This document shows positions 105 to 17,755 of a stretch of DNA of 18,152 nt, in pieces (position 1 is the first letter of the stretch; each line of letters opens with the position of its first letter). Origin of the DNA: a virus (lineage: Duplodnaviria > Heunggongvirae > Uroviricota > Caudoviricetes); the IMG/VR virus record IMGVR_UViG_2645727555_000018, positions 1 through 18,152 of that record; one strand, 5' to 3'. Below the pieces are notes generated by a model. It was not told the DNA's origin. It was given only the letters and a program-made list of their open reading frames with translations, and made no database searches. A program made the position numbers and the translations under genes.

Positions 105-479
105 TTACCACCAGGCGCAGAAGGTCAGTCTGTTATTGTGAAAGTCGTGGTTCTTAATCAGATCTTCCACAAGCTCTTTCAACTCCCCCACATCATGCCA
201 GTAACCTTCATCGTACTCCTGACTGCCGAAGAAAAAACCTTCCCGGGTAGGCAAGTACTCTTCGCAATTACTTTCGTTTATGTGCATCAAATGAGCTTTC
301 AGAAGACAAATGTCATTCATCGTTAATTCTAAAAGCTCACAATTTTCGACTTCACCTACGTTGCGCTCCATCCACCCAACGAGCGCATTGAACTTACGGA
401 AGTAAGCAACCTGCTTTCTGGATGCCTCGTTATTCAGATCGTTTTTAGGCTGTGTCTCGATATAGATATCAAGTCCCAT
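105..479 (-). CDS. hypothetical protein (accessory, phage-like); the six-frame ORF runs to 521 but the SD-backed ATG is at 479
   Basis: Long minus-strand ORF. AAGGA lies 8 nt upstream of ATG(479). The alternative starts at 515/521 fall inside the predicted -10 element (TGTGAAAAT) of its own promoter. Confidence 0.5.
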   Translation of the reverse strand: MGLDIYIETQPKNDLNNEASRKQVAYFRKFNALVGWMERNVGEVENCELLELTMNDICLLKAHLMHINESNCEEYLPTREGFFFGSQEYDEGYWHDVGELKELVEDLIKNHDFHNNRLTFCAWW

Positions 480-509: not shown

Positions 510-552
510 AATCATTTTCACAAATCAGATAAGGCAGAAAACAAATTGTTAT
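510..552 (-). promoter_or_regulatory. promoter/operator module: dyad GAAAACAAATTGTT (536-550) plus extended -10 TGTGAAAAT
   Basis: Same dyad recurs at least 9 times in the window. Here it sits where a -35 would be, just downstream of the terminator at 561-588 and upstream of gene 105..479. Confidence 0.4.
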
Positions 553-596: not shown

Positions 597-923
597 TTAA
601 GCGAATACGCTTTCAGGGATTAAGGTGTCGGCAGGAATGCCAGAGGTAATGCGCAGACCGTACTGGCCAATCCAGGTGGTGCTGGTGTTCAGGCTGGAGG
701 CGAATACGGTGTTAACCATATTCATCATGGTTTCAAACACCTCTTCATCAACCTGGCGGAAGTAGTTCTCGATTTTCAGCAGCAGCGGGTCAGTTGCATC
801 GAGAATGGACTGGTATTGAGTCGCGTACTCGCCGCCGGAGGCATCACCTTTACGCACGATCGTACTGGCCTGGACTTCGGCACCAGTTTCGGTGTTGTAC
901 GTAACAACGGTGATTTTTGCCAC
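597..923 (-). CDS. hypothetical protein; probably the 3' part of a longer gene split at an A6 tract (see 961..993)
   Basis: GTG start at 923 with GAAGGTAAG SD. The reading frame stays open upstream to 989 and encodes protein-like sequence (KKLTVDVYYASETAEGKN) that resembles the downstream sequence. Confidence 0.5.
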   Translation of the reverse strand: MAKITVVTYNTETGAEVQASTIVRKGDASGGEYATQYQSILDATDPLLLKIENYFRQVDEEVFETMMNMVNTVFASSLNTSTTWIGQYGLRITSGIPADTLIPESVFA

Positions 924-960
924 ATTCTTACCTTCGGCGGTTTCAGAGGCATAGTAAACA

Positions 961-993
961 TCAACTGTCAGTTTTTTCGCGTTTAACGGTCAT
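961..993 (-). CDS. 10-codon ORF (MTVKREKTDS) with strong SD; likely the true 5' end of gene 597..923 joined by a +1 frame change at the A6 run
   Basis: GGAGAG 8 nt upstream of ATG(993). The A6 run (plus-strand T6 at 972-977) lies exactly at the junction between the two frames. Confidence 0.35.
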   Translation of the reverse strand: MTVKREKTDS

Positions 994-1021: not shown

Positions 1022-1058
1022 TTATATTCTATGATCGTAAGTATGTACTTACAATACA
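1022..1058 (-). promoter_or_regulatory. sigma70-like promoter (TTGTAA, 17 bp, TAGAAT) with palindrome GTAAGTA-TG-TACTTAC (1037-1052) in the spacer
   Basis: Read on the minus strand: TTGTAA GTACATACTTACGATCA TAGAAT, about 25 nt upstream of the SD for ATG(993). Confidence 0.35.
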
Positions 1059-1119: not shown

Positions 1120-1431
1120 TCAGGCTATTGCCATCACTGATGCTCTCTGAATTTCTTGCTGGGCCACGCGGTTAACTTCCATCAAAGCCAGTTCGAGCTG
1201 ATGTTCCGGCCACATTCTTTGAAATGCCATCCAGCCTTTTCCACGCTGGCGACGAACATTCATTACATAACGAGTAAAGGTGTTTTTATCGAAAGACACC
1301 GCTGTTTCACGGAACAGACGAATAGAGGTTCCATTGGCAACGATGTCCAGCAAAGTTAATTGAGCAACCAGCGCAGGCTTCTCTTTTCTCTTCTGGTCTT
1401 TGTCCAGACCAAGAACCAATGATTTTTTCAT
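1120..1431 (-). CDS. hypothetical small basic protein (103 aa); ORF runs to 1473 but the SD-backed ATG is at 1431
   Basis: GGAG 5 nt upstream of ATG(1431). The 14 upstream codons are simply the translated promoter motif. Lys/Arg-rich N-terminal region. A terminator follows the stop. Confidence 0.55.
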   Translation of the reverse strand: MKKSLVLGLDKDQKRKEKPALVAQLTLLDIVANGTSIRLFRETAVSFDKNTFTRYVMNVRRQRGKGWMAFQRMWPEHQLELALMEVNRVAQQEIQRASVMAIA

Positions 1432-1478
1432 CACAACTCCGTAAACAACTTGTTTTCTCAATGGCGTAAACAATACCA
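1432..1478 (-). promoter_or_regulatory. promoter/operator module (dyad AAACAAGTTGTTT immediately upstream of SD)
   Basis: Minus strand reads CCATTGAGAAAACAAGTTGTTTACGGAGTTGTGATG; same module family as 1915..1970, 5147..5232, 16991..17040 and 17699..17755. Confidence 0.4.
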
Positions 1479-1584: not shown

Positions 1585-1914
1585 TTACGCGAATACCTCA
1601 AGAAACTCCTGAACGTCCCAATGCTGGACGAGGTGAAGATAGACCTTAGAAATCACGTCATTTTCGCTATCGCATGTGAAGTAGTACTTCTGGCTGCGGT
1701 TGTATGTGTCCACACAAAATTCGCTCATATCCATAAAGTCAGCATCTTCACCCATGTCGCAAATCATCAAAGCAGGTGCGTCATCACGAGTCATCAGCTC
1801 CAGCACCCATCTTGAATTAATCAGAGTGGAAGACCAACCTTCCAGCTCATAGAACTGGTCAAATTCTTTTTGAGTCAATTTCTTGATTTGGTTGATGTCG
1901 ATATTTGCAAACAT
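1585..1914 (-). CDS. hypothetical acidic protein (109 aa); ORF runs to 1935 but the SD-backed ATG is at 1914
   Basis: AAGGA 7 nt upstream of ATG(1914). The first 7 ORF codons are the translated promoter dyad. Confidence 0.55.
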   Translation of the reverse strand: MFANIDINQIKKLTQKEFDQFYELEGWSSTLINSRWVLELMTRDDAPALMICDMGEDADFMDMSEFCVDTYNRSQKYYFTCDSENDVISKVYLHLVQHWDVQEFLEVFA

Positions 1915-1970
1915 AAAGGAATCCTTAAACAACATGTTTTCTTGATGGTGTTATTATCGCAATAACACAC
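1915..1970 (-). promoter_or_regulatory. promoter/operator module: extended -10 TGCGATAAT followed by dyad AAACATGTTGTTT, then SD
   Basis: Minus strand reads TTGCGATAATAACACCATCAAGAAAACATGTTGTTTAAGGA. Almost the same string precedes the methyltransferase gene at 16991..17040. Confidence 0.45.
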
Positions 1971-2277
1971 AGGCGAAAAAGGATTTTATTCCGGTGAATG
2001 TGGTTTTGGCAGTGAGTTTTCAGGTTCAGTACCGAGTACACTTTTTACATTATTCTGATTTAGTGGCCGAAAGTGGCTGGTGGGCAGAATAATCCTCTCC
2101 CCGAAAACCTACTGAAATCGATTGTGACCCGTTGGCTGTCTGGCACAATTACGCTGTAGCTGGCATTCAGAGGGAATCCAGCGGTAAGCAAGTCCGCCTG
2201 CACGTGAGCGCCTCTCTTCTTCCCGCACATTACAGGTGGGTAGCCGCAACTCTCCCTCTCGCTATACCGGTACGCCA

Positions 2278-2424
2278 CCGTTCCTGAACCGGCATCGAGC
2301 CTTTTCCCGAAATCCACACAGGCAACTCGACCGTTTCCCTGAAAACCTCCAGCCGTTCCCCGAAGGCAACCCAGCCGTTTCTGTAGCGGGATGCAGCCTT
2401 TTCCCTGTATGGACCGAAGGCTGA
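2278..2424. repeat. array of six imperfect ~22-bp tandem direct repeats (consensus CCGTTYCCYGAA-N7-8-CAG); iteron- or centromere-like
   Basis: Units start at 2278, 2300, 2331, 2353, 2375 and 2397. Three are exactly 22 bp. The period is not a multiple of 3, so the overlapping ORF 2060..2566 is unlikely to be coding. Confidence 0.55.
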
Positions 2425-2460
2425 CCGTAGGGGTGTTACGGGGGATGGAATCAGGAGTTG

Positions 2461-2494
2461 AATAAATACGAAAAAGGAGGCGACACCCCTCCTT
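2461..2494 (-). terminator. intrinsic terminator at the 3' end of the G-poor noncoding segment
   Basis: Stem AAGGAGG/CCTCCTT (2474-2480 / 2488-2494) with 7-nt loop, followed on the minus strand by UUUCGUAUUUAUU. Confidence 0.5.
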
Positions 2495-3335
2495 CCCTCT
2501 CCACTTATACATACCTGGCTTCTTCGCTATACATGTTGTGTTTTCTTCGTGTTTTATCTGTCTCAACCTCTCTATAGGCGTTAATGCTCACTCCTTCCAG
2601 AACGTTCTATACGGCGACTATTTCTGTTGGTGAATTGGGTGTGTTGTTTTCTCTGTCGGTGTATGTGGTTTCGTTAGTTTTGCGGTGGTTCTTCTATGGG
2701 GTGTTCTCGTCGTTTTGGTGATTGTTCTTCTCCGTGTATGGAGTAATGGCAGGTGGGCGAATCCTTTCGTTATTGTGTTTGAGTTGTTTGTCTGGAGTGT
2801 GAAGGGCTTTTGTAGTTATTCGTGTATTGGGTAATGGCGTTTCCCGTGATTGTTCTGTTTCGTGTCTTTTGGGATTGAGAGAATCCTTGCGGTAACAGGC
2901 TTCGTTGGGGTTTCAGTGGTTCAGGTGTTTCTTCGCTGTTTGGGTAATGGCGTGTCGTGGGTATCGCGCGTATGAATATTTTCGGATTGCCTGTGAAAGT
3001 TAGGTTGGTTGTCCGGTAGCCTGGGGAGAAGAGGTGGGTCTTTTCGGTAGCCTGCCATAAAGAGGTTGGTTGTTTTGGGGAATGGCATGTGTGTTATTTA
3101 GTTGTTTTGTTATAGCTGAAAATAAGTTGTTTATATAGTTATGTAACGCAATGGGAGTGATTTTGAGCGTGTGTTTTTGTTGGTAGTGTGTTGGGTCGTC
3201 TGTGGTGAAAATTGGACGCTGTGGCGCTGTCTGCTGCGTAGAATTACGGGTATAAGAAGTGATGTGTGAATACGTCAATTTTTTAGACCAAATCGGGTGA
3301 AAGCGTTGACGTTTCGTTGATCTGTTATTTAGTTG
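2495..3335 (-). ncRNA. candidate long noncoding transcript, C/A-rich and G-poor on the minus strand; function unknown
   Basis: No convincing ORF in any frame. Plus strand is extremely G+T rich (for 2641-2700: G20 T30 C7 A3). Bounded by a degenerate promoter motif at 3336-3370 and the terminator at 2461-2494. Contains internal repeats GGGTAATGGCG (2744, 2830, 2943, 3081) and CGGTAGCCTG (3016, 3045). Confidence 0.25.
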
Positions 3336-3370
3336 TTTTCTTATTGGTATAAACAACGTTAACCTATTGA
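3336..3370 (-). promoter_or_regulatory. degenerate copy of the promoter module (TTGTTTTCTTATTGG half-dyad)
   Basis: Matches the right half of the module (CCAATAAGAAAACAA on the minus strand) but has lost the second dyad arm and has no SD or ORF behind it. Confidence 0.3.
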
Positions 3371-3485
3371 TATTTAAAGGTGTGATTGCAGGTATGGAAG
3401 AAGAGTAGTGGCGATCAACGGATTCTTATAGAAAAGAATCAAATTGTGACCGCCATTATCAACTGATTGATTAAGCTAATTACAC

Positions 3486-4846: not shown

Positions 4847-5146
4847 CTACCAACACCAGCACTCAAGCCCTTCAACGATCGGCGCACCACAATCAAAATG
4901 TACAGAGTCAAAGCCTACATCAAGTACTTTCTGAATGTTAGCAATCGCGCCTTCGGATATACCATATCGACGCAAGTCGTCTTTCCAGACATCATCCTGT
5001 AACCCGGCGTGGACAATACAACCGCCATCAATTTGTGAAACCCAATCCAGCTCATTGCTTGCGATCATGAATCGGCGAGCATCTTCCTCTGATGTATGAG
5101 ATGAACTGATCAATGCCACCTGGTAGGCTTGGGTAATGTTCAACAT
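4847..5146 (-). CDS. hypothetical protein (about 100 aa)
   Basis: GGAG 9 nt upstream of ATG(5146); dual-dyad promoter module immediately upstream. Confidence 0.5.
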   Translation of the reverse strand: MLNITQAYQVALISSSHTSEEDARRFMIASNELDWVSQIDGGCIVHAGLQDDVWKDDLRRYGISEGAIANIQKVLDVGFDSVHFDCGAPIVEGLECWCW

Positions 5147-5232
5147 TTCAACCACTCCGAAACAATTTGTTTTCTTATGTGGCTTATTATCTCAATCAAC
5201 AAAAGGTAGAAAACAAATTGTTTTAGGGCTTG
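5147..5232 (-). promoter_or_regulatory. dual-dyad promoter module: dyad 1 (5209-5224), extended -10 TGAGATAAT, dyad 2 (5158-5173), then SD
   Basis: Minus strand reads CCCTAAAACAATTTGTTTTCTACCTTTTGTTGATTGAGATAATAAGCCACATAAGAAAACAAATTGTTTCGGAG. It aligns almost base-for-base with 14040..14115. Confidence 0.45.
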
Positions 5233-5254: not shown

Positions 5255-5288
5255 CTATATGAAAATGCCCAGCGTGTTGCCGGGCATT
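5255..5288 (-). terminator. metG intrinsic terminator
   Basis: Imperfect stem AATGCCCAGC/GCCGGGCATT followed on the minus strand by UUUUCAUAU, 20 nt past the metG stop. Confidence 0.5.
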
Positions 5289-5307: not shown

Positions 5308-7341
5308 TTACTTAACCTGGTGGCCAGGTTTAGCACCAGCATCCGGGCTTAACAGGAAGATATCTTTCCCGCCGGGGCCAGCAGCCATCACCATGCCTTC
5401 AGAGATACCGAAGCGCATTTTACGCGGAGCCAGGTTAGCCACCATAATGGTGTGACGACCAATCAGTGCCTGTGGATCTGGATAAGCGGAACGGATGCCT
5501 GAGAAGACATTACGCTTTTCACCACCGAGATCCAGCGTCAGGCGAAGCAGTTTGTCAGAACCTTCGACAAACTCCGCGTTTTCAATCAGCGCTACACGCA
5601 GGTCAACTTTGGCGAAGTCGTCAAAGGTGATGGTTTCCTGAATCGGGTCGTCAGCCAGTGGGCCAGTTACCGGTGCAGCTGTGGCTTTCACTTCTTCTTT
5701 GGATGCTTCCACCAGTGCTTCCACCTGTTTCATATCGATACGGTTATACAGTGCCTTGAACGGATTCACTTTATGGCCCAGCAGCGGTTGCTGGATACCA
5801 TCCCAGGTCAGTTCTGTATTCAGGAATGCTTCTGCACGTTCAGTCAGTTTCGGCAGTACCGGTTTCAGGTACGTCATCAGCACGCGGAACAGGTTAATGC
5901 CCATAGAGCAAATCGCCTGCAGATCGGCATCGCGTCCTTCCTGCTTCGCCACCACCCACGGAGCCTGTTCATCGACATAGCGGTTAGCCAGATCAGCCAG
6001 CGCCATGATTTCACGAATCGCTTTACCAAATTCGCGGCTTTCCCATGCTTCACCAATCACTTCAGCGGCATCAGTAAAGGTTTTGTACAGTTGCGGGTCA
6101 GCCAGTTCGCCTGCCAGCACACCGTCAAAACGCTTATTGATAAAGCCCGCGTTACGGGACGCCAGATTCACCACTTTGTTCACGATATCGGCATTCACGC
6201 GCTGAACGAAATCCTCCAGGTTGAGATCGATATCATCAATGCGCGAAGAGAGTTTCGCAGTGTAGTAGTAACGCAGGCTGTCAGCGTCAAAATGATTCAG
6301 CCAGGTGCTGGCTTTAATAAAGGTGCCGCGAGACTTGGACATCTTCGCACCGTTCACCGTCACATAGCCATGAACAAATAGGTTGGTCGGCTTGCGGAAG
6401 TTGCTGCCTTCCAGCATGGCAGGCCAGAACAGGCTGTGGAAGTAAACGATATCTTTACCGATGAAGTGGTACAGCTCGGCGGTGGAGTCTTTCTTCCAGT
6501 ATTCGTCGAAGCTGGTAGTGTCGCCGCGTTTGTCGCACAGATTCTTGAAGGAACCCATGTAGCCAATCGGTGCGTCCAGCCAGACGTAGAAATATTTGCC
6601 CGGTGCGTTCGGAATTTCAAAACCGAAGTACGGCGCATCGCGGGAGATATCCCACTGTTGCAGGCCAGATTCAAACCACTCCTGCATTTTGTTTGCCACC
6701 TGCTCCTGCAACGCACCGCTGCGGGTCCATGCCTGCAACATTTCGCTGAAAGAGGGCAGATCAAAGAAGAAGTGTTCGGAATCACGCATTACCGGCGTAG
6801 CACCAGAAACTACCGATTTCGGCTCGATCAGTTCAGTCGGGCTGTAAGTCGCGCCGCAGACTTCACAGTTATCGCCGTATTGATCTGGCGCTTTACATTT
6901 AGGACAGGTGCCTTTTACAAAACGGTCCGGCAGGAACATGCCTTTTTCCGGGTCGTACAACTGAGAGATAGTGCGGTTTTTAATAAAACCGTTCTCTTTC
7001 AGGCGAGTATAGATAAGCTCAGACAACTGACGGTTCTCTTCGCTGTGCGTCGAGTGATAGTTGTCATAGCTGATGTTAAAGCCTGCGAAATCAGTCTGGT
7101 GTTCCTGACTCATTTCGCCAATCATCTGCTCCGGTGTGATACCAAGTTGCTGTGCTTTCAGCATGATCGGCGTACCGTGGGCATCGTCGGCACAGATGAA
7201 ATTAACCTCGTGGCCGCGCATTCGCTGGTAACGAACCCAGACATCAGCCTGGATGTGCTCCAGCATATGGCCGAGGTGGATTGAGCCGTTAGCGTACGGC
7301 AGCGCGCACGTCACCAGAATTTTCTTCGCGACTTGGGTCAT
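5308..7341 (-). CDS. metG: methionine--tRNA ligase (677 aa)
   Basis: N-terminus [29 protein letters not shown] with the class I HIGH-type motif (HLGH), the KMSKS motif (GAKMSKSRG) and a zinc-knuckle CPKC...CEVC. ORF extends to 7470 but the conserved start is ATG(7341). Confidence 0.97.
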
Positions 7342-9822: not shown

Positions 9823-10494
9823 CTACATACTTTCTGATCTAATTGAGTTGTTCACTGCTCTGGCAATTTTCTCCCGCAATTGCTGCGCTCCGTGGTACTG
9901 AACCGCAATATCCCGCAACTCGTTCACCAGTTCTCTAATCTGGTGATCTTTAAGCTCATTATTTGGGTGATGGGTAACAACTCTGGTTAATTCACCCTTG
10001 TCTTTTGCTCTTACGTATGCAGCTCTTGTGCATTCGACCCATGTATTACCGCCTACATTAACTTCGTAGATTAGGCTGGACTTATCTGTCAATTCGGAAC
10101 AAATACGGGCCGTGGTCTGGCAACTAGAGCATTCGCAGTTATCGCGGAAACCGTGGTCTACTGGCTTCGGTTTCACATCATCAACTTTTTCTACCCTATT
10201 GGAATTTAAATACTTCGAAGCCTTGCTATGCCAATAGCTGGTTTTAGGATCTTGTCCATCCATCAAACGCCAGGCTTCAGCGATTAACTCATAACTAGTG
10301 ACTGTAGCTTCCTGCGCATCACCAATAAGTCGTGTAATCTCTCTTTCAAGCCGACCGCCTAACTCCGTTTTAGTGCAATGTTCTGACCAATCGCCAGCCT
10401 CAAGAAGCGCGAGAATGCTTAAAATATCGTCCAATAGAACGGTAGTATTATCGACTTCCTTCTGAAACTCACCGGCTACTGATTTATGCATCAT
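9823..10494 (-). CDS. hypothetical protein (223 aa), last gene of the coupled operon
   Basis: Its ATG overlaps the stop of the upstream gene (ATGATGA); long ORF. Confidence 0.6.
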   Translation of the reverse strand: MMHKSVAGEFQKEVDNTTVLLDDILSILALLEAGDWSEHCTKTELGGRLEREITRLIGDAQEATVTSYELIAEAWRLMDGQDPKTSYWHSKASKYLNSNRVEKVDDVKPKPVDHGFRDNCECSSCQTTARICSELTDKSSLIYEVNVGGNTWVECTRAAYVRAKDKGELTRVVTHHPNNELKDHQIRELVNELRDIAVQYHGAQQLREKIARAVNNSIRSESM

Positions 10495-11144
10495 TCGTCA
10501 TCCTCATCCGAGTCATCCTCATCACAGGATGAGAGTAGTGGGTTAGTCATTCGCCCTACTTGAGTGGCGTAGCCACGCCGACAGAGATTGCGCAGCACAC
10601 TGTATATTTCGAACATCTCGGTTCGTTCATCGCCAACATCAAGCTCAGATGCTATAGCGTGGCATTCAGTCGCGAGAGCCGATATTTTCTGAAATAACTC
10701 TGCATTATTCACTGTTCGACTCCTGCGGCGTTCTGGTAGTGGCATCCAGTGTGTGACATTGCTAATCAGACCATATTCATTAGTTTGAGGATGGTTGCCG
10801 TTATCGTCTCCGTATTTAAGACTCTCCATAAAGCCATAATGCCTATTACCATTAACGCTCACAAAGCCGTAATAAGCAGGTATAACGCCGATCTCACACG
10901 TAACCAGTAAAGGAAAACTAGTTCTCCAATTTAGCTCGCCAATTACAGGCATTCGCTCACTACAGCTTATCCAACCATCCTTAGATGCGGCTGTATTGGC
11001 ATAGGCCTTACGGTGCTTCTGTAGCTCTGCTGCAATCGCTCTCACGACTTCAACTGGTGCCCTTGCAGCAAACTCAATGTTGGTGATCAGCTCATTAAGA
11101 TATTTCTCGCTTGGGTAGCATTTCTTATTGTTAACGGTGGTCAT
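10491..11144 (-). CDS. hypothetical phage protein, DUF551-like, with acidic C-terminal tail
   Basis: Motifs GWISCSERMP and THWMPLPE resemble DUF551; C-terminus CDEDDSDEDDE; TAATG overlap with the upstream gene. Confidence 0.55.
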   Translation of the reverse strand: MTTVNNKKCYPSEKYLNELITNIEFAARAPVEVVRAIAAELQKHRKAYANTAASKDGWISCSERMPVIGELNWRTSFPLLVTCEIGVIPAYYGFVSVNGNRHYGFMESLKYGDDNGNHPQTNEYGLISNVTHWMPLPERRRSRTVNNAELFQKISALATECHAIASELDVGDERTEMFEIYSVLRNLCRRGYATQVGRMTNPLLSSCDEDDSDEDDE

Positions 11145-11329
11145 TAGGCAGCTCTCTCAACAACAAGCAATTCGTCGTAGTCATAATCAGTTTCGGAACC
11201 ATCCGTACCGAACAGAGTCACTTTGTCATTTTCCATCCAAAAAGATTTAACCGCACATTGTTGACCTTTAGATGTTATGAGCACATCACCAGGGATTACG
11301 TCTTCAGCGCGAACCTCTAGTGTTCTCAT
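11144..11329 (-). CDS. hypothetical small protein (61 aa)
   Basis: ATGA overlap upstream and TAATG overlap downstream place it inside the coupled operon. Confidence 0.5.
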   Translation of the reverse strand: MRTLEVRAEDVIPGDVLITSKGQQCAVKSFWMENDKVTLFGTDGSETDYDYDELLVVERAA

Positions 11330-11856
11330 CGTGCTGCCCCCTCTTTGGTGAAAATGCCTGCTGCAATGCTGTTTATGATGCTGTCAGTGCATGGAGTAGA
11401 AAGCTGGGCATCTCCAGCAATTTTCATGACCTCAACATCCGCATATCGAATACCGAGGTGTATCAGACCGGCTATACCTGACTTAAGTCGAACATTTTCC
11501 ATAAACAGATCTTTTTCCCGCTGTTTAGCGGCTTCCAACTCCATCGACAATTTTTCCAACTGCTCTTTATGCTTCTTGTATTCCTGATATGCGTGCCAGG
11601 ACTGACCTTTGCGCACACTATCAGTAATATCAGTAATCTGTTCTGGTGTTAGCGTGGTCAGTGGCTGTGCTGGGAAAATCAGCACTTTCCCGGAATCCCA
11701 ATCAAAACCAGCGTGAATTGACTGAACCTCAACTGATGGTGTTGAACCGATGCGACCAGGCGAATGAACAACGATCGTTACATCCATATCGCGACGATGG
11801 CTGTGGTTGTTGGACAAAATACGATTCACCAACTCAGAAAATTTGGAGAATTTCAT
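11326..11856 (-). CDS. hypothetical protein (176 aa); ORF begins at TTG 11868 but the SD-backed ATG is at 11856
   Basis: GAGG 8 nt upstream of ATG(11856), which lies 8 nt after the stop of the upstream gene. Confidence 0.55.
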   Translation of the reverse strand: MKFSKFSELVNRILSNNHSHRRDMDVTIVVHSPGRIGSTPSVEVQSIHAGFDWDSGKVLIFPAQPLTTLTPEQITDITDSVRKGQSWHAYQEYKKHKEQLEKLSMELEAAKQREKDLFMENVRLKSGIAGLIHLGIRYADVEVMKIAGDAQLSTPCTDSIINSIAAGIFTKEGAAR

Positions 11857-11864
11857 GCGGAGCC

Positions 11865-12275
11865 TCAATATGCAAAATAGACCGTTGCCACGCCGTTATA
11901 GTGATCAAACGATACGGCGTTTACTTCATAGCTGGCAGGGAGCTTCGATCCGAGAACGTATCCGGGCCACGTTTTCCATGGAATTTCTCTGCGCTCACTA
12001 TCGCCATATACCGTACATCCCAGAGAGCCTACAGCTTCATTAGAACGCGTGCCGCACGTTATGAATCCCAGATTTTGCTTACTGCTCTTAATGGTGATTG
12101 GGTGAACGCTGGCTGATGCATTAGCAGCACGCTGTGCCTGTTGGTTTGTGATATTCGCAGAGTTCGCAGCAGCTACAGCAGCCGTAGTCGCGGCGGTAGA
12201 GGCTACAATAGCTGCTGAAGCATGCACTTGTTGGATATTCACCAACAATGCCGCGACAAAAATCATCTTCTTCAC
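11865..12275 (-). CDS. hypothetical secreted/periplasmic protein with N-terminal signal peptide
   Basis: GTG start with AGGAG SD. N-terminus MKKMIFVAALLVNIQQVHASAA is a typical Sec signal with AxA cleavage site. Mature part is Ala/Thr/Ser-rich. Confidence 0.6.
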   Translation of the reverse strand: MKKMIFVAALLVNIQQVHASAAIVASTAATTAAVAAANSANITNQQAQRAANASASVHPITIKSSKQNLGFITCGTRSNEAVGSLGCTVYGDSERREIPWKTWPGYVLGSKLPASYEVNAVSFDHYNGVATVYFAY

Positions 12276-12859
12276 TTGTCAGCTCCTTTGCGAATCTGTT
12301 CCGCCCATTCTTCAAGGGATTTCTCCGCATATTCACCGGACAGGCCATCAATCGGGTGCGGTTCATTAGCCAACTCTTCTTTCGCTGACAGAATCATGCG
12401 TGTAACGTCGAAAACTTCACGTAAAGACTTATTGATAAATCCGTGGTTGAAAGCAGCAGCAAGACGGCTTGCGGTATAGTTAACCCCCTCGTTGCGAGTC
12501 TCCGCACGTACTTCAGCCAGAAAAGCATCGGTGGCTGGAGTCTCCGTCAATTCGCTAACCCAATTATCTCCGTGTTCCTCGGCACACATCGCATCGAATG
12601 CTCGCTCAGATTCTTTCAGGGCTGCATTCTCCGCCGCTAATGCGTCTCTCTGCGCTCGCAACTTCTCAATTTCGGCAGCCATGTAGTAACCAACCATAGC
12701 GAAAGTGGCGAAAGGGTAGTCAGAATCATCAGGAGATACGGAGGCCATTAGCAGACCATCGTGCATGTTCTGGCTTCCATCAGTGATGGATACCGCATAA
12801 GAATCGCTGGTTTCCCGTTTATACAATACGACGACCGGGTTCTTGATTTTCTCTCTCAT
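12272..12859 (-). CDS. hypothetical protein with central coiled-coil-like segment (possibly Ead/Ea22-like)
   Basis: Heptad-like EIEKLRAQRDALAAENAALKESERA; TAATG overlap with the upstream gene. Confidence 0.55.
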   Translation of the reverse strand: MREKIKNPVVVLYKRETSDSYAVSITDGSQNMHDGLLMASVSPDDSDYPFATFAMVGYYMAAEIEKLRAQRDALAAENAALKESERAFDAMCAEEHGDNWVSELTETPATDAFLAEVRAETRNEGVNYTASRLAAAFNHGFINKSLREVFDVTRMILSAKEELANEPHPIDGLSGEYAEKSLEEWAEQIRKGADK

Positions 12860-13401
12860 TACGATGCCTCTAACTTATCTAACTCTTTCAGCCCTTCACG
12901 TACCGCGTTCACAATGCGTTCCAGATACTGGTATTTCGGGTTTGGTACCGTTGGCCAGTCGGCATACCACGGATCATCACCAAAGAGATTCAGCAGTTTG
13001 TTACCGACGCCGAAACAACAGCAGCTTTCTTTTACGTCATCGGCGTTTTCCGCCTCGTCCCACATTTCACGAGCCAGTACGGCGTCGATTTCTCTCTCTC
13101 TTCGTAACTTTATGATTTCTGACTTCACGAAAAGCAGATTTGCATCGTTGTCATCGTCGACCGTGCTTCGCAGTTGAGAGTCGAAATAGCCGATTAGATA
13201 CTCGTTGCTGACCCGCTTAATGAACGTCTGCACATCATCACCGCCCATAGCAAACCAAGCCGCAGTCCACGCTTTTCCGTAGCAGATGATGGTGATTCTT
13301 CCCTTACCAGGTTCGTAGTTTTCAATCATCACTCGAACCGGATCGAGGCGTTCCAGATCCGTCAGCACAAAGGAAAGAACATCTATTTTTTCGACCTTCA
13401 T
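12859..13401 (-). CDS. hypothetical protein (180 aa)
   Basis: ATGA overlap with the upstream HD-hydrolase gene; long ORF. Confidence 0.55.
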   Translation of the reverse strand: MKVEKIDVLSFVLTDLERLDPVRVMIENYEPGKGRITIICYGKAWTAAWFAMGGDDVQTFIKRVSNEYLIGYFDSQLRSTVDDDNDANLLFVKSEIIKLRREREIDAVLAREMWDEAENADDVKESCCCFGVGNKLLNLFGDDPWYADWPTVPNPKYQYLERIVNAVREGLKELDKLEAS

Positions 13402-14039
13402 GCAGCCTCCAACGCGCTCCAGATCAGCGATTTGTGTTTTTCATAACGTTTGATGTGTACCGGTTTCAGAAGCGCAATACCTTCAGTGACTTTCGCCATT
13501 GCGCTTAATAGCAACGGGTGTTCTATACCTATCCTCTCCATGTACTCGACAACATCAGCGTTGGCACCAATCTCTTTGCCGTGAAAGAGTACGTCCAGCA
13601 TCAGTTCTTTCTCTGCGAGGTAGACAGCTGAAAACTCGGGATCGCGACTCACGATAGAAGAGGTATTGTCGAGCAGGTCAGCCAGCTTGATCATGCGCGT
13701 CTGCATGTCGAGATTTTGCTCCAGCTCCCGGACATTGATGATGAAACGCTGTATTCGATTGCCGTCTTCTGGCCTTGCAATGTTGGTCAGAGCCTGAACC
13801 ATTTCAGCTACGCGCTCACCGAAGTGATCACGAACCATCTCTATGGTTACATGGGTGTCTTCGACCACATCATGCAGAAGCGCCGCGATTTGCATCTCCA
13901 CGGTTCCGTCATGCAATGCAACAATCTCTCGGACAGCAACCGGGTGGTTGATGTAGTCTTCGCCGGTATATTTTCTTTTCTGACCAACGCCACCATGAGC
14001 GCCAGCGGCGAACATATGAGCTTCGGAAATACTAGACAT
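13398..14039 (-). CDS. HD-domain hydrolase of the RelA/SpoT (p)ppGpp-hydrolase type (small alarmone hydrolase-like)
   Basis: GEDYINHPVAV...AALLHDVVEDT...FGERVAEMV closely mirrors the SpoT/Rel hydrolase signature (GEPYI.HP.AV / LHDV.EDT). No synthetase domain; 213 aa. Confidence 0.75.
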   Translation of the reverse strand: MSSISEAHMFAAGAHGGVGQKRKYTGEDYINHPVAVREIVALHDGTVEMQIAALLHDVVEDTHVTIEMVRDHFGERVAEMVQALTNIARPEDGNRIQRFIINVRELEQNLDMQTRMIKLADLLDNTSSIVSRDPEFSAVYLAEKELMLDVLFHGKEIGANADVVEYMERIGIEHPLLLSAMAKVTEGIALLKPVHIKRYEKHKSLIWSALEAA

Positions 14040-14115
14040 TCTTAACTCCGTTGTTTTCTAGTTGTGGTTATTTTCACAAATAAGAAAAGGTAGAAAACAA
14101 TTTATTTAAGGCCAC
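14040..14115 (-). promoter_or_regulatory. dual-dyad promoter module for the 8-gene operon
   Basis: Minus strand reads GCCTTAAATAAATTGTTTTCTACCTTTTCTTATTTGTGAAAATAACCACAACTAGAAAACAACGGAG. Aligns with 5147..5232, including the TTGTTTTCTACCTTTT block and a TGnGAAAAT extended -10. Confidence 0.45.
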
Positions 14116-14158
14116 AACTTATGGCCTTTATTTATTCATGCCGAAGGATTTGTAGCGT

Positions 14159-15243: not shown

Positions 15244-15304
15244 GTGTTTTTCTCTTATCGTTTAGTAACTACATTCTTACACAAACTAAGTAAGTATTTA
15301 CCTA

Positions 15305-16990
15305 TCATTTAACGCGTTTGAAAACGTATACGCTGACTGTGATCCCTGTGTCTTCAAACTCGTTGGTAAACGACTTCCCTCTGGCATAAACGTAATTATC
15401 CATCGTCATCCAGTCCAGTATTGGTGCAGTGCCCGGCAATACTGCTACAAGACGCCCGCCGACTTTCAGATGCCCCAGCGCAGCCATCGTGTGCTCTCTA
15501 TGACGACCAAGCGAGTACGGCGGGTTCATAACGATTTTGTCGAACTGATAACCTGCGTTGTCCTCAGACCACTTTATGAAGTCGCAGCAAATCGTGTTCG
15601 TATACCCTTTTCCACGCAGGATATCAGCGAAGAGAGGTGCGATTTCTATGCAGGTAACATCTTCCAGATCGGCGTTAATATAGGCCAGAAGATCCCCACG
15701 TCCGGCTTGAGGCTCCAGCAGCTTCTCACCAGACTTCAATTCAGTGGCTCTGGCAACGTACTCAGCAATCAAGCGTGGGGTAGGGTAGAACTGGTGTGAT
15801 TTAGTATCCGGTATTAAACCGGTAGCCACAATCGTATTTAGCGTATGGCCGATGTCATACGGGAACTGCCAGTGCTTTTTCTCCTGCACGCCGCCAATGA
15901 AGCTCAGTGTGCGCTCAAGCTCTTCCACCTGCGACTTCTGGAGAGCTGAATCAGAGAAGTACCATACGCCTTTGTCTTTGCTCAATCGCCCGTCACGAAG
16001 CGCAGTGCGAACCGGCACGGAGATCGTCTTCTGGATTAACCCGAACTGCTTTGGTGCCCGTGTTTTTGGCGCAGTTCGGCATGGCGCGGGGATTGCAGCA
16101 GGCATACTGTAAGCCAGCACCTCATTCAACTTCCAGGCCACGTCAGGATGTATTTCAAAGTGAACGTTGCCGTTCTTGAACATCTTCACGCGCATCAGAT
16201 TTCCATCGACGTTCATCCAGTCACCGGTCTGGCAGTCGTTTGCCCTATACGCAGCTGATAGCACCTCAGCAGTGCGGTTGATGGTAATAAATTCTTTGTG
16301 CGCGAAGAAATGAAGCAAGACACGCAGATCGTCGATGTAGTCCTCTTTGCGATAGTTCACGCTAACGCTGTCCCGCCAGAAATCAGAAATGCAGTCAGCG
16401 ATTATCAGCCGCTCGCTGAAACCGTTTGTCTTATTTGTCTTGTGCGCAGGACTCAGCGCCTTAAACAAGCCATACACGCGCTCAGAGAGATATTTGTGCC
16501 TGTCATTCAGCAAATTAAGCATCGTGGGTATGACCGTTTCTGCTTTGAACTCCGGTACACCAACGAACTCTTTAACCTTCATCTGGTAGCCGGTTCTGTC
16601 AGTTTTGATGACTTCCTGTTTGCCCTCTATAAACTGCTCGCGCCACTCATCTCGACGGGAAGCTGGCATGATCAGCAAAACGTTAGTCATGTCCGTGACC
16701 TTCCTCCAGTACTCGGCCCAAATATTCTGTTTCACCCATTCCAGATCGACTTTATCCAACCAACCTCGATTTAAACGCGAGCGATCTTCATCTGGTCGAT
16801 GGTTTAGTCTCAGCAGGCGATTAATCATGTTGTGGCGTTCGTCGCCATAAACGAAGTCGTGTACCTGATACATGAAGGCGATCTCTTTCTCGCACTCGGC
16901 CACGATTTCGTGGATGACATTCATTTCCTGACGATAGTCGATAGCCGTGTTTGAGCTGGCATCGTCGATGATAGAAAGGGCTGTATTCAT
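15305..16990 (-). CDS. putative N6-adenine DNA methyltransferase (gamma-class motif order) with about 400-aa N-terminal extension; no obvious partner endonuclease
   Basis: C-terminal FYPTP, then LEPQAGRGDL (AdoMet motif I), then IVMNPPYS (motif IV) about 60 aa later. Confidence 0.75.
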   Translation of the reverse strand: MNTALSIIDDASSNTAIDYRQEMNVIHEIVAECEKEIAFMYQVHDFVYGDERHNMINRLLRLNHRPDEDRSRLNRGWLDKVDLEWVKQNIWAEYWRKVTDMTNVLLIMPASRRDEWREQFIEGKQEVIKTDRTGYQMKVKEFVGVPEFKAETVIPTMLNLLNDRHKYLSERVYGLFKALSPAHKTNKTNGFSERLIIADCISDFWRDSVSVNYRKEDYIDDLRVLLHFFAHKEFITINRTAEVLSAAYRANDCQTGDWMNVDGNLMRVKMFKNGNVHFEIHPDVAWKLNEVLAYSMPAAIPAPCRTAPKTRAPKQFGLIQKTISVPVRTALRDGRLSKDKGVWYFSDSALQKSQVEELERTLSFIGGVQEKKHWQFPYDIGHTLNTIVATGLIPDTKSHQFYPTPRLIAEYVARATELKSGEKLLEPQAGRGDLLAYINADLEDVTCIEIAPLFADILRGKGYTNTICCDFIKWSEDNAGYQFDKIVMNPPYSLGRHREHTMAALGHLKVGGRLVAVLPGTAPILDWMTMDNYVYARGKSFTNEFEDTGITVSVYVFKRVK

Positions 16991-17040
16991 AATTACACCA
17001 TTAAATAATTTGTTTTCTGATTGGTGTAATTATCGCAAAC
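16991..17040 (-). promoter_or_regulatory. promoter/operator module for the methyltransferase operon: TGCGATAAT extended -10 plus dyad
   Basis: Minus strand reads TTGCGATAATTACACCAATCAGAAAACAAATTATTTAATGGTGTAATT then ATG. A 10-bp inverted repeat AATTACACCA/TGGTGTAATT (16991-17000 / 17022-17031) brackets the dyad and abuts the start codon. Confidence 0.45.
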
Positions 17041-17131: not shown

Positions 17132-17698
17132 TTAGAGTGCGTATTGCGTTTTGTGCGGCTGCTTATTCAAGTCATGGCGATGCGTGAGCTCCCGCATCAT
17201 GTCTTCAAGGCGACTCTTTGTGTCGTCGAGCTGGTCGGCCATTGCACCTAAAAGCTGGCGAACGGCCATCGGATCGTCGCTGTTTAGTGATGGCATTTTA
17301 TAACCTGCTTTAGAAGACATAAGGTTGATTGCAGACATCAACATCGTTAGAGAGGATTTAAGCCCGGCAATTTCACGATCTTTGCTGGCAATAATCGTCT
17401 CACTTTTGTTACCGTCATCAGTTCCTTGAGTCTCGCTCACCATATCCAAAGTCGCTTGCAACTTATCAGCTCTCTCTTTTTCAGCAAGGTAATGAACACC
17501 GAAATGGTGTGCCAAAGCTACAATCTGAGTTGGCTCTTCAAAGGTGGAATTAAAATTAAGTATTGTAAACAGTCTCTCAAATATGGAAACGTCTTCTATT
17601 CCTCGAAGAATGGATAACATTTTGACAAGTTCATTAGCATCCATTTCTTCGAATAGGGCGTTTTGTTCATCAGCTATTGCTTTGCATTTCTCGCACAT
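17132..17698 (-). CDS. hypothetical protein (188 aa) with N-terminal CxxC
   Basis: AAGGA SD; promoter module upstream; terminator downstream. Confidence 0.55.
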   Translation of the reverse strand: MCEKCKAIADEQNALFEEMDANELVKMLSILRGIEDVSIFERLFTILNFNSTFEEPTQIVALAHHFGVHYLAEKERADKLQATLDMVSETQGTDDGNKSETIIASKDREIAGLKSSLTMLMSAINLMSSKAGYKMPSLNSDDPMAVRQLLGAMADQLDDTKSRLEDMMRELTHRHDLNKQPHKTQYAL

Positions 17699-17755
17699 GT
17701 GTTTTCCTTAATGCTTAAACAAGTTGTTTTCTTATTGGTTTTATTGTGATGTGGC
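17699..17755 (-). promoter_or_regulatory. promoter/operator module (dyad AAACAAGTTGTTTTC)
   Basis: Plus strand AAACAAGTTGTTTTCTTATTGGTTTTATTGTG; same family as 1915..1970. Confidence 0.4.

What the first reader, a model, noticed from the sequence alone, without database searches (positions are those of the whole stretch)
5147..5232. At least nine copies of one promoter/operator module drive most accessory genes on both flanks
A dyad AAACAAnTTGTTT (often GAAAACAAnTTGTTTTC) recurs at 536-550, 1443-1458, 1927-1942, 3336-3350, 5158-5173, 5209-5224, 14047-14060, 14093-14107, 17005-17020 and 17716-17731. In most copies it sits 0-12 nt upstream of the SD and about 10 nt downstream of an extended -10 (TGCGATAAT, TGAGATAAT, TGTGAAAAT). 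At 5147-5232 and 14040-14115 a second dyad copy lies where a -35 would be, with a conserved TTGTTTTCTACCTTTT block. The operons at 5146 and 14039 therefore carry two operators bracketing the promoter. This implies a single regulon under one dimeric DNA-binding protein, not identified here. The motif also explains why several six-frame ORFs begin with translated promoter sequence (MF.P.RKQ), so annotated starts at 1473, 1935, 521 and 3356 are artefacts.
Basis: seen in the sequence. Interest (0 to 1): 0.75.

Follow-up and report, generated by a model that had tools for sequence, protein, structure and literature searches.

The report
Repeated promoter-operator module in phage-plasmid
A 13-base palindrome placed at a fixed distance from strong promoters recurs about 20 times across an SSU5-type phage-plasmid and all its relatives; it most likely lets one plasmid-encoded repressor keep these genes silent while the element sits in the cell as a plasmid.

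Summary
AAACAAnTTGTTT occurs 9 times in the window at one mismatch or fewer (0.07 expected), plus two half-sites.

The window is an SSU5-like phage-plasmid, 99% identical to pECOH89-type E. coli plasmids and 97% to phage Cyrano. The regulon spans the whole genome. Cyrano has 18 copies, 16 of them intergenic, in front of terS, parA, helicase, cobT, nrdB and many accessory genes. SSU5 has 20 and a Klebsiella relative 14. Lineages only about 70% identical keep the dyad while the flanks and downstream genes differ.

The dyad sits 10±1 nt after an extended -10 (centre about +14), or exactly 19 nt before it (centre about -38). Its distance to the start codon varies from 11 to 40 nt. Variants are never compensatory, and the RNA hairpin folds no better than shuffled sequence. 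It is therefore a DNA operator.

Published lysogen RNA-seq puts nearly all first genes at background, which fits repression.

The binding protein is not identified. My best guess (about 0.3) is the conserved ribbon-helix-helix-like protein encoded after parA, annotated RelE/ParE in Cyrano. I found no publication describing the motif.

The parts
5211..5223 (-). Upstream-type dyad of the double-operator promoter of gene 4847..5146. Its centre is about -38 and the full palindrome is AAAACAAATTGTTTT.
   Evidence: Exact match. It lies 19 nt from the -10 hexamer, as in all 14 non-redundant upstream-type contexts.
5186..5194 (-). Extended -10 element TGAGATAAT.
   Evidence: Coordinates. TGnGATAAT is nearly invariant in upstream-type contexts.
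5160..5172 (-). Downstream-type dyad with centre about +14 (AGAAAACAAATTGTTT on the sense strand). The SD GGAG follows at 5155-5158 and the ATG at 5146.
   Evidence: It lies 51 bp centre-to-centre from the upstream dyad.
5268..5286 (-). Terminator-like hairpin of the upstream gene metG, immediately 5' of the module.
   Evidence: Read from the sequence. The same arrangement of hairpin then module is seen at 14108-14128 and 568-584.
4847..5146 (-). First gene of the module, a DUF5983 protein of 99 aa.
   Evidence: Pfam PF19419, E=7e-11. RefSeq annotation.
14095..14107 (-). Upstream-type dyad (1 mismatch) of the promoter of the operon 14039..9823.
14070..14078 (-). Extended -10 element TGTGAAAAT.
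14048..14060 (-). Downstream position holding only the left half-site GAAAACAA (TTGTTTTC at 14051-14058). The right half is replaced by the SD.
539..551 (-). Upstream-type dyad (1 mismatch) for gene 105..479. The extended -10 TGTGAAAAT is at 514-522 and there is no downstream dyad.
1443..1455 (-). Downstream-type dyad (exact) for gene 1120..1431. The -10 TGGTATTGT is at 1470-1478.
1927..1939 (-). Downstream-type dyad (1 mismatch) for gene 1585..1914. The -10 TGCGATAAT is at 1953-1961.
17003..17015 (-). Downstream-type dyad (1 mismatch) for the DUF4942 methylase-like gene 15305..16990. The -10 TGCGATAAT is at 17029-17037.
17717..17729 (-). Downstream-type dyad (exact) for gene 17132..17698. The -10-like CACAAT lies within 17740-17748.
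3333..3350 (-). Half-site promoter module (AAGAAAACAACTAAATAAC) at the head of a 1.4-kb stretch with no convincing gene.
   Evidence: The sequence after it is conserved in the diverged lineage L022.
3120..3132 (.). Additional dyad (1 mismatch) inside the non-coding stretch. Its role is unclear.

Best explanation
The dyad AAACAAnTTGTTT (16-nt unit AGAAAACAAnTTGTTT) is a double-stranded DNA operator built into host sigma-70 promoters of the extended -10 type on an SSU5-like phage-plasmid.

A symmetric, element-encoded repressor binds at about +14, at about -38, or at both sites 51 bp apart on the same face of the helix. This keeps roughly 20 promoters shut while the element is maintained as a plasmid. 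The controlled genes include accessory cassettes, replication and nucleotide-metabolism genes, parA and the terS leader.

Shown here:
- the sites exist and are far more frequent than chance
- their position is fixed relative to the -10
- they are conserved across diverged lineages
- the first genes are silent in a lysogen

Inferred: that a protein binds the dyad, and that its action is repression.

Most likely binder (about 0.3): the 119-aa protein encoded immediately after parA, CYRAN_29, which lies outside this window. It appears to be a ParG/omega-type ribbon-helix-helix partner of a small ParA. If so, it would autoregulate parA through the same dyad and silence the rest of the regulon.
For: - Enrichment: 9 sites in the window against 0.07 expected. 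Cyrano has 18 sites against 0.4 expected, 16 of them intergenic in a genome that is 87% coding; the binomial P computed (15 or more of 18 intergenic) is 3e-11.
- Same motif elsewhere: 20 copies in SSU5 and 14 in Klebsiella phage p4727. Up to 10 copies per 11-14 kb occur in IMG/VR relatives that share only 6-17% alignable DNA in that region.
- Orthologous parA, cobT, helicase, nrdB and terS promoters keep the dyad as an island of identity.
- Position: the downstream type lies 10 nt (range 8-11) after the -10 hexamer. The upstream type keeps a fixed place in an ungapped alignment of 14 contexts. Distance to the ATG ranges from 11 to 40 nt.
- Variants break pairing and are never compensated. The RNA hairpin has an MFE of -1.5 to -3.3 kcal/mol with z-scores of -0.4 to +1.1.
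- Lysogen RNA-seq (PMC9928086 Table S1) has a background median of 9.8. Values: terS 7.1, cobT 7.8, C58 5.7, tciA 7.0, C87 7.1, C101 7.5, C105 12.8, C106 12.2, C108 5.7, C110 6.7.
- The module is plasmid-only in E. coli.

Evidence for CYRAN_29 as the binder:
- Its gene abuts a 222-aa ParA. A homologue at 32% identity also follows a ParA.
- The core QGRPTRGK..I.SRTMS.EDE...FTRSDVIRAAI is invariant down to 48% overall identity.
- There are sub-threshold RHH matches: RHH_1 at E=0.005 and aCcr1 at E=2e-4.
- The N-terminus is disordered.
- It is 91-93% identical in SSU5 and p4727.
- It is expressed at 9 times background in the lysogen.
- The parA promoter keeps the dyad in six lineages even where the rest of the promoter is unrelated.
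Against: - No binding data exist for any protein.
- No transcription start sites are mapped, so +14 and -38 are inferred from the -10 elements.
- Silence in the lysogen would also fit promoters that need an activator.
- parA (49.8), helicase (21) and C111 (25) lie above background although their dyads are consensus.

Against CYRAN_29 specifically:
- The RHH fold is not established. Matches are below the curated cut-offs, and the AF2 monomer has pLDDT 64 with no strand.
- The parA promoter carries one dyad, not the iterated array typical of type Ib centromeres.
- C106, the FljA-like protein, C123 and C117 are also present in every complete relative checked, so phylogenetic profiles do not discriminate.
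Confidence: 0.65

Rival explanations
1. The transcribed copy of the dyad in the 5' UTR is an RNA operator. The conserved FljA-family protein of the element (CYRAN_114) binds it, blocks translation and destabilises the mRNA, as Salmonella FljA does on fliC mRNA.
For: - CYRAN_114 matches Pfam Flag1_repress at E=1e-80, with a weak Hfq/LSm resemblance.
- Among phage records it occurs only in SSU5-like elements, including those of Klebsiella. From my own knowledge Klebsiella is normally non-flagellate, so an internal target is plausible.
- FljA acts on the fliC 5' UTR (PMC2652032).
- The Salmonella/Citrobacter fliC leader shares the 8-mer CAAGTTGT with the dyad.
- 31 of 55 contexts lie between the predicted start site and the SD.
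Against: - 14 of 55 contexts lie upstream of the -10, directly after a terminator, and three promoters have only that copy.
- Spacing is fixed to the -10, not to the SD or ATG.
- A strict palindrome has no rationale for a single-stranded RNA site, and the hairpin is unstable and shows no covariation.
- The protein is only 35-39% identical in lineages where the dyad is unchanged.
- Its mRNA is 1.8 times background in the lysogen.
- The shared 8-mer has a chance probability of roughly 0.02 by my estimate.
Confidence: 0.12
2. The mechanism is the same DNA operator, but the repressor is the reader's candidate: the basic 103-aa protein at 1120..1431 (CYRAN_106), acting as a dimer through its C-terminal helix.
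For: - Its own promoter carries an exact dyad, and in a diverged lineage an upstream-type dyad with extra half-sites.
- The family is confined to SSU5-like elements.
Against: - Its mRNA is at background in the lysogen (12.2 against a median of 9.8), which is hard to reconcile with holding 100 or more operator copies per cell.
- It is only 51-63% identical across lineages with an invariant dyad.
- Many other regulon genes also carry the dyad, so the dyad at its own promoter is not specific evidence.
Confidence: 0.1
3. The dyad is a site for a lytic-phase activator or antiterminator, not a repressor. The promoters are silent in the lysogen because that factor is absent.
For: - The upstream copy at about -38 is a classic activator position.
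- The first genes are at background in the lysogen.
- The terS leader has dyads followed by a conserved hairpin, which suggests antitermination control.
Against: - Most copies are at about +14, a position that blocks rather than helps RNA polymerase.
- The promoters have near-consensus extended -10 elements that normally need no activator.
- parA, which must be expressed in the plasmid state, carries the same site and is expressed.
Confidence: 0.07
4. No dedicated binding protein exists. The module is a portable promoter cassette kept uniform by recombination between copies, and it serves as a joint for shuffling accessory genes.
For: - A 58-nt module is 100% identical between the window and IMG/VR locus L085 but is fused to unrelated genes, with homology ending at the end of the dyad.
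- Four further pairs have 80-85% identical upstream parts and unrelated downstream parts.
- Each cassette is bounded by a terminator hairpin plus the module.
Against: - Recombination alone does not explain a perfect palindrome.
- It does not explain retention of only the 16-nt unit in orthologous core-gene promoters whose flanks have diverged.
- It does not explain the inverted upstream copies at fixed spacing.
- This role is compatible with the operator function rather than an alternative to it.
Confidence: 0.06

Closest known systems
Phage-plasmid P1: C1 repressor with 22 operators dispersed over the genome
   Same: Both are phage-plasmids of enterobacteria in which many separate lytic and accessory operons each carry a copy of one operator at the promoter. 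One protein can therefore hold the whole genome silent in the plasmid state (P1 facts from PMC8546580).
   Different: The P1 operator is an asymmetric 17-mer, ATTGCTCTAATAAATTT. Here the site is a 13-bp palindrome. I did not search for a C1 homologue. The HTH protein annotated as putative repressor in Cyrano (CYRAN_45) has a different palindrome at its own promoter and is absent from SSU5, which still has 20 dyads.
Omega of pSM19035 and ParG of TP228: type Ib ribbon-helix-helix partition proteins that are also transcriptional repressors
   Same: These systems pair a small ParA with a small protein that has a flexible N-terminal tail and a beta-alpha-alpha core. In pSM19035 the binding sites lie in several separate promoter regions, which also serve as centromeres (PMC5016525; PMC3130281). 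CYRAN_29 has the same gene position and layout, and the dyad sits in its operon's promoter.
   Different: Omega and ParG bind arrays of 7-10 heptads or about 12 tetramer boxes. Here the sites are single 13-bp dyads or pairs 51 bp apart, spread over about 20 promoters. The RHH fold and binding of CYRAN_29 are not demonstrated.
KorA/KorB regulon of IncP plasmid RK2
   Same: Short palindromic operators are dispersed over a plasmid and coordinate replication, partition and other operons. The KorB operator is a 6-1-6 palindrome like this one (my own knowledge; not checked in a paper here).
   Different: KorB is a ParB-family HTH protein. The ParB-like genes of this element (CYRAN_119 and CYRAN_120) are at background in the lysogen, so they are unlikely to be the repressor.
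FljA and the fliC 5' UTR of Salmonella
   Same: In both, a regulatory site with dyad character lies between the promoter and the SD. An FljA-family protein is encoded by the element.
   Different: FljA acts on mRNA. Here a quarter of the sites are upstream of the -10 and the spacing follows the promoter, not the ribosome-binding site.
Promoter-early stem-loop (PeSL) cassettes of T4-type phages
   Same: Repeated promoter plus hairpin units sit at the borders of small accessory genes and may act as recombination joints (my own knowledge). One pair here shows homology ending at the module edge.
   Different: This is a different phage type, and the defining element here is an operator-like palindrome at fixed spacing to the -10. 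Circular recombination intermediates were not examined.

Membership tests
Sigma-70 promoter of the extended -10 type | A TG dinucleotide one base upstream of a -10 hexamer close to TATAAT | tested here: met
   TGCGATAAT, TGAGATAAT, TGTGAAAAT and TGGTATTGT at the coordinates. TGnGATAAT is nearly invariant in 14 upstream-type contexts. The generic -35/-10 scan does not detect them because they lack a good -35.
Sigma-70 promoter of the extended -10 type | A transcription start 5-9 nt downstream of the hexamer | not testable with these tools
   No 5'-end data were available. The published RNA-seq is gene-level only.
Repressor operator overlapping a promoter | Dyad symmetry and fixed position relative to core promoter elements | tested here: met
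   A 13-bp palindrome. It lies 10±1 nt after the -10 or 19 nt before it, while its distance to the ATG varies from 11 to 40 nt.
Repressor operator overlapping a promoter | Target genes are off when the repressor is present | tested here: inconclusive
   First genes are at background in the LF82 lysogen. No comparison without the repressor is available.
Repressor operator overlapping a promoter | Demonstrated binding of a protein | not testable with these tools
   Needs EMSA, footprinting or ChIP.
P1 C1-type dispersed operator system | Many operator copies dispersed over a phage-plasmid genome | tested here: met
   18 copies in Cyrano, 20 in SSU5 and 14 in p4727.
P1 C1-type dispersed operator system | Asymmetric 17-bp consensus ATTGCTCTAATAAATTT | tested here: not met
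   The site is the palindrome AAACAAnTTGTTT. The P1 consensus is from PMC8546580.
Type Ib partition protein (ParG/omega) acting as operator and centromere binder | A small ParA without an N-terminal DNA-binding domain, followed directly by a small partner gene | tested here: met
   ParA is 212-226 aa with CbiA/ParA/MipZ hits, and the partner gene abuts it in Cyrano, SSU5, L123, L145, L147, L148 and L149.
Type Ib partition protein (ParG/omega) acting as operator and centromere binder | A disordered N-terminal tail plus a beta1-alpha1-alpha2 ribbon-helix-helix core | tested here: inconclusive
   AF2 residues 1-47 have no secondary structure and pLDDT is below 50 for residues 1-26, and helices fall where alpha1 and alpha2 are expected, but mean pLDDT is 64 and no strand appears in the monomer. 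RHH_1 gives E=0.005, 0.3 and 0.3 for three members, and aCcr1 gives E=2e-4; all are below the cut-offs.
Type Ib partition protein (ParG/omega) acting as operator and centromere binder | An array of iterated sub-sites next to the operon | tested here: not met
   There is one dyad in the parA promoter and no repeat array in Cyrano 28700-31400. Half-site arrays exist only at some promoters of a diverged lineage.
FljA-type 5' UTR translational operator | An FljA-family protein is present | tested here: met
   PF03614 at E=1e-80. It is a core gene of SSU5-like phages.
FljA-type 5' UTR translational operator | The site lies in the transcript and is positioned relative to the ribosome-binding site | tested here: not met
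   14 of 55 contexts lie upstream of the -10, and the distance to the ATG varies from 11 to 40 nt.

The most novel reading that the evidence does not exclude
The partition adaptor of the phage-plasmid, the small RHH-like protein encoded after parA, is also its global silencer. The roughly 20 dispersed dyads would then be both operators and a dispersed centromere. Plasmid segregation, replication genes, accessory cassettes and the packaging operon would all be tied to the level of one protein. Loss or titration of that protein would both destabilise the plasmid and open the lytic programme.
Probability: 0.3. Interest if true: 0.75.

Novelty: new member of a known kind. Interest (0 to 1): 0.5.

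Why it matters
SSU5-like phage-plasmids are common. The module alone is found in 245 of 5426 complete E. coli genomes. Published surveys report that phage-plasmids, including SSU5-like ones, often carry resistance genes (PMC9600943, seen by abstract only). Their gene regulation is essentially undescribed: four of the eight full-text searches targeted this motif or SSU5 regulation, and none found a paper on it.

A single 16-nt unit that marks about 20 promoters has four uses:
- It maps transcription units directly.
- It corrects several annotated start codons.
- It explains why strong-looking promoters are silent in lysogens.
- It provides a short DNA bait for finding the protein that controls the plasmid-to-phage switch.

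It also suggests how new accessory genes come under control, namely by landing behind a ready-made promoter-operator cassette.

Tried and rejected
- **RNA hairpin or 5' UTR structure.** Folding of five leaders gave MFEs of -1.5 to -3.3 kcal/mol, no better than shuffles. All variants are single-sided. Rejected as a structural element.
- **Rfam scan of the window.** No family matched.
- **Generic promoter scan.** It does not detect the modules because they lack a -35, so I measured the -10 spacing myself.
- **IMG/VR scan for the exact 16-mer.** Most of the 120 loci were chance hits in unrelated viruses. Only SSU5-like contigs had clusters. L021, L038 and others were inspected and dismissed, and one giant-virus contig has its own unrelated repeat.
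- **CYRAN_45 (HTH 'putative repressor') as binder.** Disfavoured. Its promoter region lacks the dyad and has a different palindrome. SSU5 lacks the gene but keeps 20 dyads.
- **CYRAN_37.** Absent from p4727, which keeps 14 dyads.
- **ParB-like CYRAN_119/120 and wHTH CYRAN_123.** At background in the lysogen.
- **CYRAN_117.** RHH-like by eye and expressed, but its strand region is not conserved between lineages.
- **PDB sequence searches for C106, FljA-like, C123 and the CYRAN_29 family.** Nothing informative.
- **Structure search of C106.** No convincing DNA-binding match.
- **Whole Raoultella-lineage genome, to test co-variation of strand and dyad.** No close record exists in the plasmid collection.
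- **Literature searches for the motif or for SSU5 regulation.** Nothing found.

Full report
**What the window is**

The 18.2-kb window is part of an SSU5-like phage-plasmid. It matches about 110-kb E. coli plasmids such as pECOH89 at 99% over 96% of its length. It matches Escherichia phage Cyrano (pLF82) at 97% over 78%. Most genes are on the minus strand.

**The observation**

AAACAANTTGTTT at one mismatch or fewer occurs 9 times, against 0.07 expected from shuffles. With three mismatches allowed, the count is not clearly above chance: 23 against 14.6 expected, and 6 of 200 shuffles reach 23. The signal is therefore carried by near-perfect copies.

The sites at 3336-3350 and 14047-14060 keep only the left half, GAAAACAA.

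**Scope**

I assembled the whole Cyrano genome from three fetches and scanned it.
- It holds 18 dyads at one mismatch or fewer, against 0.4 expected.
- 16 of them are intergenic in a genome that is 87% coding.
- They precede terS (two copies), parA, the replicative helicase, cobT, nrdB, tciA and about ten small genes of unknown function.
- The downstream-type units point the same way as the gene they precede; the upstream-type copies are inverted.

The regulon is therefore genome-wide and is not confined to the accessory flanks.

SSU5 has 20 copies and Klebsiella phage p4727 has 14, at orthologous promoters.

A scan of IMG/VR for the exact 16-mer mostly returned chance hits. Contigs of 50-112 kb related to Cyrano, however, carried up to 10 copies per 11-14 kb. 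In those regions only 6-17% of the DNA aligns with Cyrano, at about 70% identity.

In complete E. coli genomes the double-operator module occurs in 245 of 5426 genomes, at 299 places, all on plasmids.

**Anatomy**

I collected 55 non-redundant contexts. The conserved unit is AGAAAACAAnTTGTTT.
- In 31 contexts it lies downstream of a -10 element, followed by an SD and an ATG.
- In 14 contexts it lies upstream and inverted, so that the AGA arm again faces the -10. The consensus there is gCCTTAAACAAnTTGTTTTCTGCCTTaTCT....TGnGATAAT.
- The remaining 10 were not classified by my rule.

Taking the start site as 7 nt after the hexamer, the downstream dyad is centred near +14 and the upstream one near -38. 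That is 51 bp apart, about five helical turns.

The gap from the hexamer to the downstream unit is 8-11 nt, most often 10. The upstream copies align without gaps to the -10. The distance from the dyad to the ATG ranges from 11 to 40 nt. The element is thus positioned relative to the promoter and not to the ribosome-binding site.

**DNA or RNA**

Several observations point to recognition of duplex DNA by a symmetric protein.
- All observed variants change one arm only. Most would break a base pair and none is compensated.
- Five leaders folded as RNA gave -1.5 to -3.3 kcal/mol, with z-scores from -0.4 to +1.1.
- The upstream copies lie between a terminator hairpin and the -10, outside the transcript of their own promoter.

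**Conservation**

Alignments of the parA, cobT, helicase, nrdB and terS promoters from three to seven lineages each show the 16-nt unit as the main island of identity. In two further lineages (L148 and L149) the parA upstream sequence is unrelated to Cyrano's. It still carries AAGAAAACAAGTTGTTT or AAGAAAACATCTTGTTT at the same place.

**Function**

A published RNA-seq data set for the Cyrano lysogen LF82 (PMC9928086, Table S1) has a median of 9.8 normalised counts.

| First gene behind a dyad promoter | Count |
|---|---|
| terS | 7.1 |
| cobT | 7.8 |
| C58 | 5.7 |
| tciA | 7.0 |
| C87 | 7.1 |
| C101 | 7.5 |
| C105 | 12.8 |
| C106 | 12.2 |
| C108 | 5.7 |
| C110 | 6.7 |
| nrdB | 12.9 |
| parA (exception) | 49.8 |
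| helicase (exception) | 21 |
| C111 (exception) | 25 |

The genes after parA in its operon read 89 and 55.

Near-consensus extended -10 promoters that are silent in the plasmid state fit repression. An activator requirement is not excluded, but a site at +14 argues against it.

**Who binds**

This is not settled. I screened the small proteins of Cyrano.
- **CYRAN_45** is the HTH protein annotated as putative repressor. It has no dyad near its gene. It has a perfect copy of a different palindrome, GGTAAGTGCTTACC. SSU5 lacks the gene yet keeps 20 dyads.
- **CYRAN_37** is missing from p4727.
- **The ParB-like proteins and CYRAN_123** are at background in the lysogen.
Its family is restricted to these elements. 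The model is confident (pLDDT 81): four strands plus a long helix. Its best structural matches are a capsid protein, NTF2-like folds, and only modestly AP2 or integrase arm-binding domains. Its mRNA is at background (12.2).
- **CYRAN_114** is an FljA-family protein (E=1e-80). It is present in every SSU5-like phage, including Klebsiella ones. FljA acts on the fliC leader RNA, and that leader shares CAAGTTGT with the dyad. It is a real rival, but the positional evidence above argues against an RNA site. The protein is also only 35-39% identical in lineages where the dyad is unchanged.
- **CYRAN_29** is the best candidate, encoded directly after parA and annotated RelE/ParE.
  - Its family keeps QGRPTRGK..I.SRTMS.EDE...FTRSDVIRAAI invariant down to 48% overall identity.
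  - It has a disordered N-terminus with a conserved MGDLAK start.
  - It gives sub-threshold matches to ribbon-helix-helix models.
  - A homologue at 32% identity again sits right after a ParA. That homologue has a different strand (KRLTFSLSQ) and different repeats, AGCTTGC three times, in its parA promoter.
  - It is 91-93% identical in SSU5 and p4727.
  - It is expressed at 9 times background in the lysogen.
  - In the one lineage with an altered strand (Raoultella, SRSLSIEDE), the parA and helicase dyads are degenerate.

This layout matches type Ib partition adaptors such as ParG and omega. Omega also represses several promoters that double as centromeres.

Against CYRAN_29: the fold is not proven, and no repeat array lies next to parA. 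I put this identification at about 0.3.

**Comparison with known systems**

The closest working analogue is P1, whose C1 repressor binds 22 dispersed operators. The P1 site is an asymmetric 17-mer, so this is not a member of that family. Omega/ParG, KorB and FljA each share some features and fail others; the membership table lists them. Eight full-text searches, four of them aimed at this motif or SSU5 regulation, found no description of either. That library is incomplete.

**Verdict**

The finding is real and correctly read as a promoter-operator regulon. It is a new member of a known kind. Interest is moderate, and would be higher if the partition protein proves to be the silencer.

Noticed in passing
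window 1040-1053 and 15285-15306; Cyrano genome-wide (L002-L004): A second dispersed palindrome has consensus about GATAGGTAAGTAcTTACcTATC. Cyrano has 23 matches to the 20-mer at 5 mismatches or fewer, 22 of them intergenic, against 1.7 expected. The copies precede structural, lysis and DNA-metabolism genes. A perfect core copy lies in the promoter region of the HTH 'putative repressor' CYRAN_45. It looks like a second promoter or operator class.
   Followed up: partly
window 2060-3480: About 1.4 kb has no convincing gene and is strongly strand-biased (GT-rich on the + strand). In the minus sense it begins at a half-site promoter module (3333-3350), and the sequence after that module is conserved in a diverged lineage (L022 near 11169). 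There is no Rfam match and no tandem repeat. Cyrano annotates two ORFs here and RefSeq annotates none.
   Followed up: partly
window 972-977: A run of six T (A6 on the sense strand) replaces A5 in pECOH89 and Cyrano. This gives a +1 frameshift 18 nt into gene 597..992. It may be a sequencing error, a pseudogene or a slippery tract.
   Followed up: partly
window 513-515 and 1933-1935; Cyrano CYRAN_105, CYRAN_108 and CYRAN_110: Annotated start codons fall inside the -10 element or inside the dyad. The shorter starts with a proper SD are better supported: MGLDIY at about 479 and MFANID at 1914.
   Followed up: partly
Cyrano 29975-30334 (L002), outside the window: The gene annotated 'RelE/ParE putative toxin' directly after parA looks like a ParG/omega-type ribbon-helix-helix partition adaptor, not a toxin.
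   Followed up: yes
Cyrano 100780-101301 (L004); SSU5 96897-97415: A full-length FljA-family gene (repressor of phase-1 flagellin) is conserved in every SSU5-like phage record found, including those of Klebsiella. From my own knowledge Klebsiella is normally non-flagellate, so its target may lie in the element itself.
   Followed up: partly
Cyrano 54-135 (L002) and orthologues in SSU5, p4727, L023 and L105: The terS leader carries one or two dyads. A hairpin follows that is kept by compensatory changes between lineages (GAGCGC..GCGCTC against GGCGTC..GATGCC), just before the terS start codon.
   Followed up: partly
Cyrano 43040-43100 (L002) and orthologues: Upstream of the cobT promoter, an inverted repeat (CCTGCGCGAA...TTCGCGCAG) is maintained by compensatory substitutions across lineages.
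   Followed up: no
window 5160-5232 against L085:91-148: The double-operator module is 100% identical over 58 nt in the two elements but is fused to unrelated genes. Homology ends exactly at the end of the downstream dyad, which suggests cassette exchange at the module.
   Followed up: partly
Cyrano 40268-40822 (CYRAN_43), outside the window: This gene of unknown function is by far the most expressed in the lysogen, at 7084 counts or about 720 times background in the published data. It is absent from SSU5 and p4727.
   Followed up: no
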